Shown: positions 45,291 through 59,596, numbered from the stretch's first letter. The stretch is DNA of 64,000 nt from a virus (IMGVR_UViG_3300010399_000038:7741-71740); one strand, 5' to 3'. The notes: generated from the sequence alone by a model not told the origin. Translations and numbers: made by a program.

Positions 45291-45650
45291 GGTAAAAAAA
45301 CTTTACTATACTACGCATCACACTGCTAAACCGAGCGTCACATGACGTTACGAGACGTTACTTTGCTGGACAGGGCGACACCACGCATGACTTGACATTA
45401 CTTTGCTTTGCCATGAAAAAATATCTTTGTCGGATTAAAAGAACTTTACTTCGCAAAACTGTGCATTTACGCAACTATGCTGTGCCTTACCAAACACGAC
45501 TATACATTGCTATACCCCACAAGACAATACTTAATTTTAATAATATTACGGATTAAAAGAACTATACTAAACGCTACTGAGCAAGACACTACGGCACGTC
45601 GCCTCACGATACCAGACGGTGCTCCACTCCGCAGAACACCACCATGCTAC
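45291..45650 (-). ncRNA. Array of three putative guide-RNA units with 5-nt NNN-GY periodicity (VIPR-like)
   Basis: On +, RC recurs every 5 nt at 45300-45414 (23 periods), 45443-45533 (18, one of them 6 nt) and 45561-45650 (18). Two units abut an identical cggattaaaagaac; the third abuts a degenerate ggtaaaaaaac. Confidence 0.85.
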
Positions 45651-46216
45651 AATGTTTTTTCTAATGATATTAATTTAAATCTTCCAAAATACCCGTTGTT
45701 CGTTGGCCTGTAACTTCCGATGCCTACATAATTCCCGGTTGTTTCAATGAGTTCTGTAATCATTTCCTTTGTCAAAGTTCCGTTATCCAATATCATATCA
45801 AACTCGGCTTTCCATGTTGACCATTTAGGGCGGATAACCATTACCCTTGCTTTGACGTTTTTGTTCACGGCTGATCGCTTATCAATTTCATCATACTCCG
45901 GCATCGTTATTTCTTCCGGGGAAACTCTCAACACGGCAGCGATAACGCCTTTCATACTTCTTTTGGAATTTCCGACTTTACTTTTCAGATAGCCGCCACC
46001 GTTAATGAAAGCGATTCTTAGCTGTTCTGCGGGGATGAAACATTTGTCGGCCTTATTGCGGTAGCAATGAAATTCAGCCCGTACAGCATCTTGCTGATTA
46101 ACGTCAGGGCGTTCTATAATGTGCTTCCTGTTTTTCTCCCATTCTTCTAACTTTTGGTCATCCATGCGATGCTGCATGTAGGGAGTGATTCCTTCGATTT
46201 TAACATTGTAAATCAT
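45647..46216 (-). CDS. Stand-alone Cas7/RAMP-like protein (189 aa), putative RNA-guided effector
   Basis: Likely start MIYNVKIEGITPYMQH (RRM beta1). FIPAEQLRIAF (IP...LR helix), thumb region IDKRSAVNKNVKARVMVIRP, and a G-rich loop GNYVGIGSYRPTNNGYFGRF at the C-terminus. Confidence 0.8.
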   Translation of the reverse strand: MIYNVKIEGITPYMQHRMDDQKLEEWEKNRKHIIERPDVNQQDAVRAEFHCYRNKADKCFIPAEQLRIAFINGGGYLKSKVGNSKRSMKGVIAAVLRVSPEEITMPEYDEIDKRSAVNKNVKARVMVIRPKWSTWKAEFDMILDNGTLTKEMITELIETTGNYVGIGSYRPTNNGYFGRFKLISLEKTL

Positions 46217-46330
46217 GTCTTGCAAGTTTAAGATTATACGGCGCAGGGCTGCAAGACACACGGTTTCCCGTTGGGAGGAATCCCACTACGCCGTAAATAT
46301 GTTTATTGATTTTAAACGTGTCTTGCATAT
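46216..46330 (-). promoter_or_regulatory. Structured leader with an antisense element and two complementary target sites
   Basis: Stem 46237-46246/46286-46295 encloses tgcaagacac (46250-46259). This is the reverse complement of gtgtcttgca (46318-46327) and of tgtcttgca (46216-46224, at the start codon). Confidence 0.65.
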
Positions 46331-46342
46331 TGTAAATATAAA

Positions 46343-47640: not shown

Positions 47641-47961
47641 CTATTTACTCAACATTTTTTGAACGGTCATGATAATATCGTCCATTTCTGATTTAAGCAA
47701 AACCTTATTGTGTTCCTTGCTCATCAAATTAAATAACGGCTGATACCAATAAATTGTTCCGGGCTGCACTATTGTTATAAATCGCTTTTTGCCTCGAATA
47801 TATTTTACCAACCCTTCATTCTGCAATTCCTTTATCGGGATATATACCGAGCTTGTCGGGCAACCAAAATGTTTGGCGACATCTTCAATCATACATTCTT
47901 CTCCCGGCTTATCCTGTATATATTCACGAAGTCTTTCTCTTATTGGAACGCCTTTCGCCAT
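47641..47961 (-). CDS. Winged-helix DNA-binding protein
   Basis: IEDVAKHFGCPTSSVYIPIKELQNEGLV. Confidence 0.6.
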   Translation of the reverse strand: MAKGVPIRERLREYIQDKPGEECMIEDVAKHFGCPTSSVYIPIKELQNEGLVKYIRGKKRFITIVQPGTIYWYQPLFNLMSKEHNKVLLKSEMDDIIMTVQKMLSK

Positions 47962-48147: not shown

Positions 48148-49023
48148 TTAAATAATACTATCGTTGTCTGTTTGTTCGCTATTGGGCTTTTCTGTTCCAC
48201 AAAATCCATTGCACTCCATTAATGATTCCGGTTGCCTTCCTTTTATCATTGAAATATCTTTCATTAATGGGTAATTAGGATGCGGTAAAAGAAAAACAAG
48301 TTCTGATTTGCCATTGTTTCTTTTCTTTGCGTCAACCGATTGATCTTTACAAATGGTCACAGGCTTCCCTTTTTCATTAGTTAAATCATGTTCAATTTTT
48401 GCCATTGCTTCAAACCTGTCAGGAAAATCATTCTTGAATTTTTGCCAGTAACCTATGCCGCCCTGAACGCATCCTGTTTTTAAACAGTTATTGTTTGAGT
48501 ACCCGAGTTTGTAACTGTTCGGTAATTCTACTCCTGCTTTTTGGAGCATCTTTATACAATCTTTTTTATCAAGCAATTCATATATAAGCGGGAATATTGG
48601 TTTTGAGTCTGGATAATTTCGTCTCATGTTTTTAGCCCGGTTAATTTCTGAAACATCAAAACCAAAAGCCTGATACGAAAAGATGTTTTTATTCTGGTAA
48701 TCCTGCCTTACAGCCCTCTTTAATTCCGATGAGCATATTGCGCCAGTTGCGCTATTAAGAGAGAGGAATTTATACCAAACCTCTTGTATGTTATCGTAGT
48801 TCTTGTTTGTGATCGTCAAAATTTGTGTGCCAAACCACTTCTCGCAATCAATCCTGAATCGTTCCGTATCGTCATCCTCATTACGAGTGCCTATTAATAT
48901 GACAGCCACGTTTTCGAGGCCAAACCAATCAATACAAAGTTTACAAGTGATTGCAGAAGTTGCGCCGCCACTCCACCATGCAATAACCGGATTATCCTTA
49001 TTGATGTTTTTTGTATCAAACAT
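48148..49023 (-). CDS. PAPS-reductase-like (PP-loop) protein
   Basis: IAWWSGGATSA PP-loop, C..ELK, NNNCLKTGCVQGG and C-terminal ECNGFC. Likely start MFDTK at 49023. Confidence 0.75.
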   Translation of the reverse strand: MFDTKNINKDNPVIAWWSGGATSAITCKLCIDWFGLENVAVILIGTRNEDDDTERFRIDCEKWFGTQILTITNKNYDNIQEVWYKFLSLNSATGAICSSELKRAVRQDYQNKNIFSYQAFGFDVSEINRAKNMRRNYPDSKPIFPLIYELLDKKDCIKMLQKAGVELPNSYKLGYSNNNCLKTGCVQGGIGYWQKFKNDFPDRFEAMAKIEHDLTNEKGKPVTICKDQSVDAKKRNNGKSELVFLLPHPNYPLMKDISMIKGRQPESLMECNGFCGTEKPNSEQTDNDSII

Positions 49024-49279
49024 TGTCAATGATATTTTTAACCGCTTCAAGACATTCGTCGGTAATCCCGTTTTTCAAAGCGTACTCAATGCCATACTTA
49101 CCTGTCAGGTTTATATTAACGTCTTTATAATCTTCTCTCCTATCCTCTCCCGATTCAATAAACCCTTGTATCAACTTGTGATTAAACAGCGTTGACTTTT
49201 TCCCGCTATTCCCAAATACAAACCACAATCTTTCCAGCTTTGCTCTCTGGTCGTCTGTTATTGTTACTTTTTTACTCAT
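49016..49279 (-). CDS. Hypothetical protein
   Basis: Co-directional ORF. Confidence 0.55.
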   Translation of the reverse strand: MSKKVTITDDQRAKLERLWFVFGNSGKKSTLFNHKLIQGFIESGEDRREDYKDVNINLTGKYGIEYALKNGITDECLEAVKNIIDNV

Positions 49280-58474: not shown

Positions 58475-59596
58475 AATTTAGAAATGTGTATTTATGATTA
58501 GAACGTATAAAAGGAAGTTAATTATAAATAAAGAACAAGAGAAAAGAATTAACTCTTGGATTGGGGCTTGTCGGTGTGTGTATAATATGTCTCTTGAAAT
58601 TCAGATTTCTGCAAAAAAGGCTGGATTTCCGTATGTTAACAAGTATGAGCTTATGCGTCAACTAACTACCATCAAGGACATAGCATGGATTTCAGACGTG
58701 CCGTCTCAATCTCTTCAAAACGCCGTCGAAAGATTAGATAGGTCATATAAATCCTTCTTTGGTGGTGGTGGATTTCCAAAGTTTGCAGCCAAACGAAAAT
58801 ATAAATCCATACTTATAAAATCAATTAAAATAACTAACGGTATTGTGACTGTTCCTAAAATAGGCAGCGTAAAATTTTTCAAAGACTCTGAAATAATAGG
58901 TATACCAAAAACAGCAACTATAAAAAAAGAGCCAACGGGCTATTTCATTTGTATCGTATGCGACAATGTCCCAAAAAAGTTTGATAGCGAGAACCAAACT
59001 ATCGGACTGGACATGGGCTTGTCGCATTTTTGTGTTGATAGTAATGGAGGGTTTATTTCCAATCCCAAGCACTTCAAAAAATATGAGCGTCAATTACGAA
59101 TCGAAAACAGGTCTTTGGCTCGAAAAAAGAAAGGCTCTAACAGTTGGAAGAAACAAGCTAAACGTTTGTCGTTGCTGCATCACAAAATAGGAAACGTTCG
59201 AAGGGATTTTCTGCACAAGGAAAGCACAAGGATCGCTAAGTCCAATTCAATCGTCTGTTTGGAAGACTTGAATATTGTAGGGATGGCAAGAAACGGCAAC
59301 CTTTCCAAGCACATTCTTGATGCGGGTTGGGGATTATTCAGAACAATGCTTGAATATAAAACAGCCGTTGTTCGGGTAAATCCAAAGCACACTTCCCAAG
59401 CCTGCTCAAAATGCGGCCACGTTGATTCTGTAAGCCGTTTAAGCCAGTCAAATTTCACCTGTACCAATTGTGGTCATTCAGAAAATGCGGACGTAAATGC
59501 CGCTAAAAACATATTACGCAAGGGCATTGCGTTAGGTCGCCAACGTGAGCCAACAGGCTGTGCGTTGACTTTAAATCTTTAAAAGAAGTATGTCAG
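58475..59596 (+). mobile_element. TnpB-only (IS1341-like) element; probable right end at ...GTATGTCA(G)
   Basis: No tnpA nearby. GC-richer structured 3' region ending gaagtatgtca at 59595. Boundaries are approximate. Confidence 0.55.
58494..59582 (+). CDS. tnpB: IS200/IS605-family RNA-guided nuclease TnpB
   Basis: RTYKRKL HTH, RuvC-I IGLDMGL, RuvC-II LEDLNI, CxxC...CxxC Zn finger and RuvC-III NADVNAAKNI. Confidence 0.95.
   Translation: MIRTYKRKLIINKEQEKRINSWIGACRCVYNMSLEIQISAKKAGFPYVNKYELMRQLTTIKDIAWISDVPSQSLQNAVERLDRSYKSFFGGGGFPKFAAKRKYKSILIKSIKITNGIVTVPKIGSVKFFKDSEIIGIPKTATIKKEPTGYFICIVCDNVPKKFDSENQTIGLDMGLSHFCVDSNGGFISNPKHFKKYERQLRIENRSLARKKKGSNSWKKQAKRLSLLHHKIGNVRRDFLHKESTRIAKSNSIVCLEDLNIVGMARNGNLSKHILDAGWGLFRTMLEYKTAVVRVNPKHTSQACSKCGHVDSVSRLSQSNFTCTNCGHSENADVNAAKNILRKGIALGRQREPTGCALTLNL

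What the first reader, a model, noticed from the sequence alone, without database searches (positions are those of the whole stretch)
45300..45650. Removing the GY scaffold gives natural-looking sequences, including a gene start MKKNQHVVP
Seen, by concatenating the variable triplets on the minus strand. Unit 3 (45414-45300) gives ATG AAA AAA AAT CAA CAT GTG GTC CCT CCA AAA AAC CTC AAC CAT GAC TCG TTA AGT GAT GTA ATA AAA, a stop-free MKKNQHVVPPKNLNHDSLSDVIK that starts at the first triplet. From memory, KNQHVVP is the typical N-terminus of DUF2188-family proteins, though the rest does not follow that family. Unit 2 read on + gives TTTTTCAAATGTATTTGCATATTGTCTTCAAACGTATATTTATCCCAAGAATTTA, resembling a Bacteroidota promoter (TTTG-N17-TATATTTA). 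Unit 1 gives GTAATGGGTTCTGGAGGAACCCTGATCGAGGACGCCAGTCTTTCAAGCTTAATA, with an emergent GGGTTC/GAACCC inverted repeat. Inference: all three variable bases may carry target information, and targets may be promoters and translation starts, which fits CRISPRi-like silencing. I found no full match in this window by eye.
Basis: partly seen in the sequence, partly recalled or inferred. Interest (0 to 1): 0.85.

Follow-up and report, generated by a model that had tools for sequence, protein, structure and literature searches.

The report
Phage VIPR guide array, triplet code
This stretch is a soil phage's array of VIPR guide RNAs, a recently described phage relative of CRISPR, and its three variable bases per five-base repeat spell codons of target genes, one of them the start of a suspected bacterial defence gene.

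Summary
Window 45300-45650 (minus strand) holds three units of 18, 13+5 and 23 five-base repeats, NNNGY. They lie directly behind a 189-aa gene (46216-45647) whose family profile matches the solved SUSP1 Vipr protein (E 5e-17). So this is a VIPR system (Viral Interference Programmable Repeat; bioRxiv 10.64898/2026.04.26.720920) with the non-canonical 'YNNNG' repeat that paper mentions only in its methods. The kind is already published.

Dropping G-Y gives real coding sequence. The first nine triplets of unit 3 match the start of a Bacteroidota DUF2188 gene at 18/18 first-and-second bases. Five other guides in four related phages spell the same K-N-Q-H-V motif, differing only synonymously at third bases. 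DUF2188 matches PADLOC's candidate defence family PDC-S16 (E 1e-35).

Whether the third base is actually read is suggested, not shown. The promoter reading of unit 2 and the hairpin in unit 1 have no support. No exact ten-triplet target was found in IMG/VR or GTDB. Units 1, 2 and the second half of unit 3 have no identified target.

The parts
45647..46216 (-). vipr gene (189 aa, ATG at 46216). It encodes a minimal Cas7-like RAMP protein that should coat the guide RNA, one protomer per 5-base repeat.
   Evidence: A profile of 20 relatives matches PDB 36pp_D 'SUSP1 Vipr protein' at E 5e-17 over the full length. It also matches phrog_4652 at E 2e-21. The AlphaFold model (pLDDT 78.3) has Csm3/Cas7 chains as its best Foldseek matches (E 2e-6, TM 0.5-0.59). 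No Pfam or PADLOC family was found.
45561..45650 (-). vrRNA unit 1: 18 NNNGY repeats. The first pentamer overlaps the vipr stop codon and the first free triplet is ATG (45645-45643). The triplets are stop-free in sense. Target not identified.
   Evidence: There is no related guide or local target above chance.
45549..45560 (-). Short conserved 3' tail of unit 1 (12 bases, U-rich as RNA), followed by an AT-rich spacer at 45534-45548.
   Evidence: The same 12 bases follow unit 2. Relatives end their units the same way, with a T-rich run after the last G-T.
45443..45533 (-). vrRNA unit 2: 13 + 5 repeats with a one-base register slip at 45468. Target not identified.
45431..45442 (-). 3' tail of unit 2, identical to that of unit 1.
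45355..45414 (-). vrRNA unit 3, first 12 repeats. The triplets spell the start codon and first codons of a DUF2188 / PDC-S16 gene (M-K-K-N-Q-H-V-V-P-P-K-N).
   Evidence: The first 9 triplets match the start of a Bacteroidota DUF2188 gene (L287) at 18/18 first-and-second bases and 5/9 third bases. For triplets 1-12 against the IMG/VR alleles L236 and L203, 10 of 12 match at first and second bases. Five further guides in L129, L130, L131 and G001 spell the same motif.
45300..45354 (-). vrRNA unit 3, last 11 repeats. This is a separate segment with no match to DUF2188. Its last two or three triplets are of the kinds that commonly end units in relatives.
   Evidence: One search shows no match from triplet 13 on. 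One search shows which triplets commonly end units. One search finds no related guide.
45291..45299 (-). T-rich tail of unit 3. The next ORF (45275-44937, 112 aa, weak match to phrog_7704) starts 16 bases later.

Best explanation
The interval is the guide-RNA (vrRNA) array of a VIPR system. It is carried by a complete 71.7-kb tailed phage from a soil metagenome that probably infects Bacteroidota.

Inferred mechanism, by homology to the SUSP1 system:
- The three units are transcribed from the minus strand, behind vipr.
- One Vipr protomer binds each 5-base repeat and holds the fixed G-Y.
- The variable bases are presented to double-stranded DNA at a ratio of 3 target bases per 5 guide bases.
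- The resulting filament blocks transcription of the target.

What differs here (shown): only two positions are fixed and three are hypervariable. The variable triplets, read one after another, are therefore a gapped copy of contiguous target sequence, usually in frame with codons and in the sense of the coding strand.

For this window (shown at the sequence level): the first 9-12 triplets of unit 3 are aimed at the 5' end of a DUF2188-family gene. That family sits in prophages and defence islands and is PADLOC's candidate defence gene PDC-S16.

Inferred function: the phage silences that gene in a host or a resident element.

Not resolved: the targets of units 1, 2 and the second half of unit 3.
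For: Identity of the system:
- Vipr homology at E 5e-17 to 36pp_D and a Cas7-like fold.
- NNNGY arrays lie on the vipr strand, directly up- or downstream, in 15 of 15 IMG/VR relatives with 48-96% identical Vipr and in 3 of 3 Bacteroidota MAG contigs.

Three variable positions: entropy is 1.89, 1.90 and 1.84 bits at N1, N2 and N3, against 0 and 0.53 at G and Y (713 repeats).

Stride of 3, in frame:
- A guide of phage G011 spells the Vipr G-loop peptide. It matches vipr genes at 21-22 of 22 first-and-second bases in G011 itself, G009/L198, L197 and L201.
- A guide of L201 matches G009 at 25 of 27 contiguous bases.
- A guide of G009 spells 10 of 11 residues of the gene just upstream of its own array although only 22 of 33 bases agree.

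DUF2188 as target:
- 15 guide pairs share 6 or more first-and-second-base-identical triplets, against 0 in the shuffled control. 11 of the 15 belong to the K-N-Q-H-V cluster of six guides from five phages.
- In 30 Bacteroidota DUF2188 loci chosen by the Pfam model alone, the only runs of 9 or more triplets are these guides on the gene start: L129 with 10, the window with 9, L130 with 9. My own estimate of the chance expectation is about 0.03.
- DUF2188 equals PDC-S16 at E 1e-35 to 1e-37 over the full length.
- Defence-type neighbours in 4 of the 7 loci whose ORFs I listed; I scanned 10 proteins from 6 of them: ThiF/E1-E2 with DUF6527, HTH-M78 with a pPIWI-associated nuclease, HsdS, and a patatin effector.
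- Passages calling DUF2188 'previously linked to bacterial defense' (10.1101/2022.04.27.489752) and a putative Thoeris effector (10.64898/2025.12.03.692087).

Host: 86 of 87 cultured-phage relatives of the terminase infect Bacteroidota.
Against: - No expression, processing or binding data exist for this locus.
- No allele matching all of unit 3's first ten triplets exists in IMG/VR or in 185,579 GTDB species genomes (0 hits each). The best natural alleles miss triplets 2 and 10, or triplets 10-12.
- In the local 1.68-Mb set, seed hits of guides were not more numerous than for shuffled guides (56 against 66-84).
- A stride of 3 was not clearly better than 2, 4 or 5: 10 hits against 4-6 in controls. 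The rule therefore rests on a handful of strong pairs.
- Neither the window's genome nor 15 related phage genomes carry a DUF2188 gene. The target must lie in an unsampled host or element.
- PDC-S16 is a candidate defence gene. I saw no experimental test of it.
- No conserved accessory (vap) gene was found within about 3 kb in 29 loci, unlike typical VIPR loci.
Confidence: 0.8

Rival explanations
1. It is a VIPR array, but the third variable base is not read. The canonical one-base-skip rule applies: two bases are read and the target's third base is flipped out. N3 is then only a relaxed scaffold position, as in the 'WGT/NN' reading of such repeats in 10.64898/2026.10.21.760802. The codon-like look of N3 would be a leftover of how guides arise, or of general sequence bias.
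For: - This is the only rule shown experimentally, for SUSP1 and P. fulva.
- N3 is A/T-rich: 72% A+T.
- Against natural DUF2188 alleles, N3 agreement is only 3-6 of 10-12 while first and second bases are perfect or nearly so.
- The depletion of in-frame stop triplets comes from TAG, CTA and TAA only. TGA, TCA and TTA are not depleted, so it may be ordinary k-mer bias.
- The purine/pyrimidine class test on aligned columns is only p 0.06.
Against: - N3 entropy equals that of N1 and N2.
- Under the two-base rule the G011 guide would match its own vipr gene at 22/22, while its third bases agree at only 3/11. Against other phages' vipr genes third-base agreement is 7/11 for L197 and G009 but 2/11 for L201. 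The authors report no self-targeting, and lower self-scores, in the canonical systems.
- Third-base differences among the six K-N-Q-H-V guides are all synonymous.
- A non-coding target matches at 7/9 third bases.
- The Asp that contacts the first G in SUSP1 (D177) aligns with an invariant Ser in this clade.
- Inference: no simple copying process could insert G-Y after every third base, so third-base agreement suggests selection for pairing.
Confidence: 0.4
2. The ORF-like reading of the concatenated triplets is chance, and the units carry no image of any gene.
For: - A stop-free run of 18-23 triplets is not rare (my estimate, no call).
- Units 1 and 2 have no match anywhere I could search.
- ATG is not enriched at guide 5' ends.
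Against: - Six guides in five phages spell the same DUF2188 N-terminus with synonymous variation, while the shuffled control gives 0 shared runs.
- Runs of 9-10 triplets fall exactly on DUF2188 start codons in loci chosen without reference to the motif.
- The G011 guide matches vipr at 22/22.
Confidence: 0.03
3. The guides act on the phage's own genes, as autoregulation of vipr or neighbouring genes, rather than on foreign DNA.
For: In relatives, three guides match genes of their own genome at first and second bases:
- G011 against its own vipr, 22/22.
- G009 against the gene upstream of its array, 18/22.
- G005 against a downstream PDDEXK-like gene, 19/22.
Against: - For this window no self-match was found, and the phage has no DUF2188 gene.
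- In the three self cases the third bases agree at only 2-4 of 11. In G009 synonymous codons differ even at first bases. That looks like aiming at other alleles while sparing self.
Confidence: 0.07

Closest known systems
Type II VIPR of Escherichia phage SUSP1 and the Pseudomonas fulva prophage (bioRxiv 10.64898/2026.04.26.720920, also PMC13142463; 10.64898/2026.04.26.720927; 10.64898/2026.10.15.759431). I read results and selected methods sections.
   Same: - A homologous Vipr protein: E 5e-17 over the full length, with the G-loop Arg, the aromatic residue, the thumb Arg and the N-terminal His all aligned.
- Five-base tandem repeats with fixed and hypervariable positions, in arrays flanking vipr on its strand.
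- Phage-borne.
- Guide-to-target ratio of 5:3, in register with codons.
- Guides aimed at rivals' vipr genes near the gene's end and at early codons of target genes.
   Different: - The repeat has two fixed and three variable positions (G-Y / NNN) instead of three and two (GGY / NN).
- The Asp contacting the first G is Ser in all 15 clade members.
- The tail is a short U-rich stretch, not a pseudoknot.
- No conserved vap gene in 29 loci.
- The hosts are soil and freshwater Bacteroidota rather than Enterobacteria or Pseudomonas.
- The recurrent target is a defence-linked host or prophage gene family rather than a satellite recombinase or lysis-lysogeny regulators.
Non-canonical VIPR repeats already listed in print: 'NNNGG, YNNNG, NNNNG' (methods of 10.64898/2026.04.26.720920) and 'WGT/NN, TGH/NN, GAC/NN' clusters (10.64898/2026.10.21.760802, passages).
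   Same: NNNGY read in another register is YNNNG. With the A/T-rich third base it would also look like WGT/NN.
   Different: Those texts give the motifs only. In what I could read, no targeting rule, targets or protein correlates are given for this class.
Cas7 backbone of class 1 CRISPR effectors (Csm3, Cmr4, type VII Cas7, Csf2).
   Same: Fold similarity (Foldseek E 2e-6 to 1e-4, TM 0.5-0.59). The principle is shared: one RAMP per fixed step of guide, with a thumb that interrupts pairing.
   Different: - A 5-base step with 2 bases withheld, instead of a 6-base step with 1.
- No CRISPR repeats, spacers, Cas6, large subunit or adaptation genes.
- A single small protein.

Membership tests
VIPR system | A Vipr protein: a minimal RAMP with an RRM core, a glycine-rich loop and a thumb. 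| tested here: met
   Profile hit to PDB 36pp_D 'SUSP1 Vipr protein' at E 5e-17, residues 1-187 against 1-191. The glycine-rich loop G-x-G-S-x-R-P...G-x-F-G is invariant. The model has Cas7-like matches.
VIPR system | Tandem pentanucleotide repeats next to vipr, with fixed G/Y positions alternating with hypervariable positions. | tested here: met
   The consensus is the published alternative YNNNG, not the canonical YNNGG.
VIPR system | Repeat tract followed by a conserved 3' tail (a pseudoknot in the SUSP1 clade). | tested here: inconclusive
   An identical 12-base tail follows units 1 and 2, and a T-run follows unit 3. Relatives show T-rich ends, or hairpin-like tails in some subclades. I did not fold them. 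No pseudoknot is evident.
VIPR system | vrRNAs are expressed as roughly 100-nt RNAs and bound by Vipr. | not testable with these tools
   Needs small-RNA sequencing and a pull-down.
VIPR system | Non-contiguous recognition at 3 target bases per 5 guide bases. | tested here: inconclusive
   Strong individual pairs exist at stride 3. The global comparison of strides 2-5 in 1.68 Mb did not separate them.
VIPR system | An accessory vap gene beside vipr (described as typical, not universal). | tested here: not met
   No protein family other than Vipr is shared by 4 or more of 29 loci within about 3 kb at blastp E 1e-5. The exceptions are antisense ORFs inside vipr.
VIPR system | Carried by a virus or other mobile element. 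| tested here: met
   G000 is an IMG/VR record of 71,740 bases, 100% complete by CheckV, with terminal repeats. It carries a terminase, a virion protein and a DnaB-like helicase.
DUF2188 (Pfam PF09954) / PADLOC PDC-S16, as the family of unit 3's target | The target sequence belongs to a gene that matches the family model. | tested here: met
   3 of 3 scanned IMG/VR ORFs (out of 60 look-alikes) match at E 1e-23 to 1e-25. The L287 and L283 proteins match PDC-S16 at E 1e-35 to 1e-37. 30 Bacteroidota loci were chosen by the model itself.
DUF2188 (Pfam PF09954) / PADLOC PDC-S16, as the family of unit 3's target | The guide matches such a gene over its whole length. | tested here: not met
   Only triplets 1-9 (L287) or 1-12 with two mismatched triplets (L236, L203) match. 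Triplets 13-23 do not. There were 0 exact ten-triplet hits.

The most novel reading that the evidence does not exclude
In this YNNNG class of VIPR, the position that is the first fixed G in canonical systems has become a third reading base. Each protomer would then read a whole codon.

Two consequences would follow:
- Wobble-position mismatches are what let a phage spare its own alleles while silencing a rival's. Its own vipr matches at 22/22 first-and-second bases but only 3/11 third bases.
- The system is used as an RNA-guided anti-defence weapon that shuts off a DUF2188 / PDC-S16 defence gene of the host or of a resident prophage.
Probability: 0.35. Interest if true: 0.75.

Novelty: new variant of a known kind. 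Interest (0 to 1): 0.55.

Why it matters
VIPR was described only in 2026, and its rule (two bases read, one skipped) has been worked out for one type.

If three bases are read in this class:
- The code becomes contiguous at the target while staying gapped in the guide.
- That changes how targets of such arrays must be predicted.
- It changes how specific a reprogrammed guide can be.
- It offers a simple explanation of how self is told from non-self among closely related phages.

Separately, guides from five phages converge on the first codons of DUF2188. That is independent genomic evidence that this small protein of unknown function matters in phage-host or phage-prophage conflict. It also makes its proposed defence role directly testable.

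Tried and rejected
- Tandem Repeats Finder reported nothing at the locus.
- Rfam gave no match at E up to 1.
- blastn of the locus against GenBank phages found no match.
- Two literature searches by motif strings led nowhere. The system was found through the PDB name.
- All-against-all search of 248 guides in 1.68 Mb of related phages: seed hits were not enriched over shuffled-triplet controls.
- Strides 2, 3, 4 and 5 were not separable.
- The translated-guide search gave only three or four guides better than the best control E of 0.02.
- Stop-triplet depletion against third-base shuffles is significant (100 against 120.7 in sense, 94 against 113.4 in antisense). It is carried by TAG, CTA and TAA only, so I do not count it as evidence of coding frames.
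- ATG is not enriched at guide 5' ends.
- The purine/pyrimidine class test of third bases in split against four-fold codon boxes gave p 0.06.
- No conserved accessory gene was found.
- There is no DUF2188 gene in the window's genome or in 15 related phage genomes, nor in the three MAGs that carry the clade.
- Sequencing runs: no RNA holder listed. One DNA run, a soil metagenome, may be the source of the contig.
- A link between G-loop residue and repeat motif across distant Vipr clades gave no simple code.
- Supplementary files of the VIPR papers were closed. They may already give the type and targets of this class.
- I did not search units 1, 2 and the second half of unit 3 against the public collections, because that needs joined sequence that I could not hand in.

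Full report
WHAT IS THERE. On the minus strand of window 45300-45650 lie three units of a five-base repeat, three free bases followed by G and a pyrimidine.
- 45650-45561 has 18 repeats.
- 45533-45469 has 13 repeats, then one extra base, then 45467-45443 has 5 repeats.
- 45414-45300 has 23 repeats.
- Units 1 and 2 are each followed by the same 12-base U-rich tail (45560-45549 and 45442-45431). Unit 3 is followed by a T-run.

Nothing like it occurs elsewhere in the 64 kb. Tandem Repeats Finder and Rfam see nothing. The array starts inside the stop codon of a minus-strand gene at 46216-45647, which encodes 189 aa.

WHAT IT IS. The protein has no Pfam family but belongs to phrog_4652.
- A profile of 20 relatives matches one solved structure, 36pp chain D, named 'SUSP1 Vipr protein', at E 5e-17 over the full length.
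- The AlphaFold model (pLDDT 78.3) resembles Cas7-type RAMP subunits such as Csm3.

The name led to three 2026 preprints on VIPR, Viral Interference Programmable Repeat systems. I read the results and selected methods of the first, the results and discussion of the second, and the abstract and one results section of the third. They describe the following:
- A phage-borne Vipr protein coats a vrRNA made of 9-16 repeats, with GGY fixed and NN variable.
- One protomer binds each repeat.
- The NN pairs read double-stranded DNA while skipping every third target base, so 5 guide bases cover 3 target bases.
- Skipped bases fall on codon wobble positions.
- The complex silences transcription of satellites, prophages and rival VIPR loci.

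NNNGY is YNNNG in another register. A fourth preprint lists non-canonical motifs such as WGT/NN.

CONSERVATION.
- All 15 IMG/VR relatives with 48-96% identical Vipr carry NNNGY arrays of 6-32 repeats on the vipr strand, directly before or behind the gene.
- Three Bacteroidota MAG contigs do the same.
- In 16 full phage genomes, all 58 runs of 7 or more repeats are at these loci.
- Over 713 repeats the three free positions have 1.89, 1.90 and 1.84 bits of entropy. G has 0 and Y has 0.53, being T in 88%.
- Phages whose Vipr proteins are 96% identical to the window's (L001, L122, L123) share none of its guides.
- No second protein family is conserved near vipr in 29 loci.

DOES DROPPING G-Y GIVE NATURAL SEQUENCE? 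Yes, in the cases that can be checked.
1. A guide of phage G011 (11 triplets) spells the Vipr G-loop peptide. It matches vipr genes in frame at 22/22 first-and-second bases in its own genome, in L197 and in L201, and at 21/22 in G009/L198.
2. A guide of L201 matches G009 at 25 of 27 contiguous bases, in a stretch with no ORF of 40 aa or more on that strand.
3. A guide of G009 spells 10 of 11 residues of the gene just upstream of its own array, although only 22 of 33 bases agree. The differences include Arg and Leu codons from different boxes.
4. 15 guide pairs share 6 or more triplets identical at first and second bases, against 0 after shuffling triplet order.

Eleven of those 15 pairs fall in one cluster of six guides from five phages: window unit 3, L129, L130, L131 and two in G001. 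All spell x-K-N-Q-H-V, and every third-base difference among them is synonymous.

THE TARGET OF UNIT 3.
- A motif for ATG-x-K-N-Q-H-V-V-P found 69 places in IMG/VR. 60 of them are the start of a 73-77 aa ORF.
- 3 of 3 scanned ORFs are Pfam DUF2188 and phrog_3220.
- Against those alleles, unit 3 follows the gene for 12 triplets, of which 10 match at first and second bases. From triplet 13 on it does not match at all.
- As a test free of the motif, I took DUF2188 genes found by the Pfam model in 69 of 401 sampled Bacteroidota genomes.
- One of them (L287) starts M-K-K-N-Q-H-V-V-P. It matches unit 3's first nine triplets at 18/18 first-and-second bases and 5/9 third bases.
- 8 of 30 such loci give a run of 7 or more triplets.
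- The only runs of 9 or more, for any of about 260 guides in these loci, are the K-N-Q-H-V guides on the start codon.
The real target allele is therefore unsampled.

WHAT DUF2188 IS.
- The protein matches PADLOC's candidate defence family PDC-S16 over the full length at E 1e-35 to 1e-37. That 'PDC' stands for phage defence candidate is recalled, not taken from a call.
- Neighbours in the Bacteroidota loci include ThiF/E1-E2 with DUF6527, an HTH-M78 regulator with a pPIWI-associated nuclease, HsdS, and a patatin effector.
- Passages in two papers call DUF2188 linked to defence and a putative Thoeris effector.
- Many IMG/VR hits sit in records numbered like those IMG/VR derives from isolate genomes (how I read those record names is recalled). 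The family is therefore carried at least by viral or proviral records.

IS THE THIRD BASE READ? This is open.

For:
- It is as variable as the other two bases.
- The Asp that contacts the first G in SUSP1 aligns with a Ser that is invariant in this clade.
- The G011 guide would hit its own vipr perfectly under a two-base rule. Third bases agree at 3/11 with self, at 7/11 with two rivals and at 2/11 with a third.
- Third-base changes among related guides are synonymous.

Against, or neutral:
- Agreement with sampled DUF2188 alleles is only 3-6 of 10-12.
- The class test gave p 0.06.
- The stop-triplet depletion is a TAG/CTA/TAA effect.

HOST AND CONTEXT.
- The window lies in an IMG/VR record of 71,740 bases that is rated complete.
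- It carries a terminase, a virion protein and a DnaB-like helicase.
- The terminase's 87 relatives among cultured phages include 86 from Bacteroidota hosts, at about 26% identity.

WHAT REMAINS UNEXPLAINED.
- The targets of units 1 and 2 and of the last 11 triplets of unit 3.
- Whether unit 3 is one RNA or two.
- How the RNAs end.

VERDICT. The kind of system is already in print, and this is an uncharacterised variant of it. The open and interesting points are the three-base reading and the defence-linked target.

Noticed in passing
window 46217-46342 (minus strand, between the ORF at 46663-46343 and vipr): There is no repeat array upstream of vipr here, unlike in many relatives. The stretch holds an inverted repeat of about 10 bases, a near-direct repeat of about 11 bases ending at the vipr ATG, and a TATAAT-like hexamer.
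   Followed up: no
window 45468: One extra base breaks the 5-base register inside unit 2 (13 repeats, slip, 5 repeats). The VIPR paper mentions frequent internal degeneracy of vrRNAs.
   Followed up: partly
L001, L122 and L123 against window 45300-45650: Phages whose Vipr is 96% identical to the window's carry four units with entirely different triplets. Guide content therefore turns over much faster than the protein.
   Followed up: partly
L053 12292-12966 (phage G009) and L083 5657-6271 (phage G005): Genes beside the arrays of two relatives are spelled by one of their own guides, with synonymous differences. One is a 224-aa protein with weak DNA polymerase beta palm and thumb matches. The other is a 204-aa PDDEXK-like / exonuclease VIII-like protein. 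Both matches are below the Pfam cut-offs.
   Followed up: partly
L275, L283, L286, L293 (Bacteroidota genomes, beside DUF2188): DUF2188 genes sit next to defence-type genes: ThiF/E1-E2 with DUF6527, HTH-M78 with a pPIWI-associated nuclease, a type I restriction S subunit, and a patatin effector with PADLOC E 2e-97.
   Followed up: partly
L105 5601-7292: A Vipr only 21% identical to the window's is followed by 15 runs of NNNGY repeats (187 repeats).
   Followed up: no
L092-L121 (distant Vipr homologues): Other period-5 motifs sit beside distant Vipr genes. Some are on the opposite strand. They include NNGGY, NNNNG and patterns that read as GAC/NN or GTC/NN. I found no simple link to the G-loop residue.
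   Followed up: partly
L122/L123, about 450 bases behind vipr; L004, L006, L007 tails: The last unit of L122 is followed by a G+C-rich hairpin and T-run like an intrinsic terminator. Some subclades have longer hairpin-like tails instead of the bare T-run seen in the window.
   Followed up: no
all guides of the clade (191 guides, 2161 triplets): Relative to third-base shuffles, the triplets CTA, AGT, TAG, AAT and TGT are depleted (z -4.4 to -2.6). TAT, AAA, GTT and CAA are enriched (z 3 to 4.5). The cause is unknown.
   Followed up: no
window 58494-59582 (+), 48148-49050 (-), 47641-47961 (-): Three other genes were noted in the phage. One is a transposase-family gene (phrog_506, E 8e-104). One is a PAPS-reductase-like gene (phrog_424, E 1e-47). 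One is a small winged-helix protein with weak TrmB and MarR matches.
   Followed up: no
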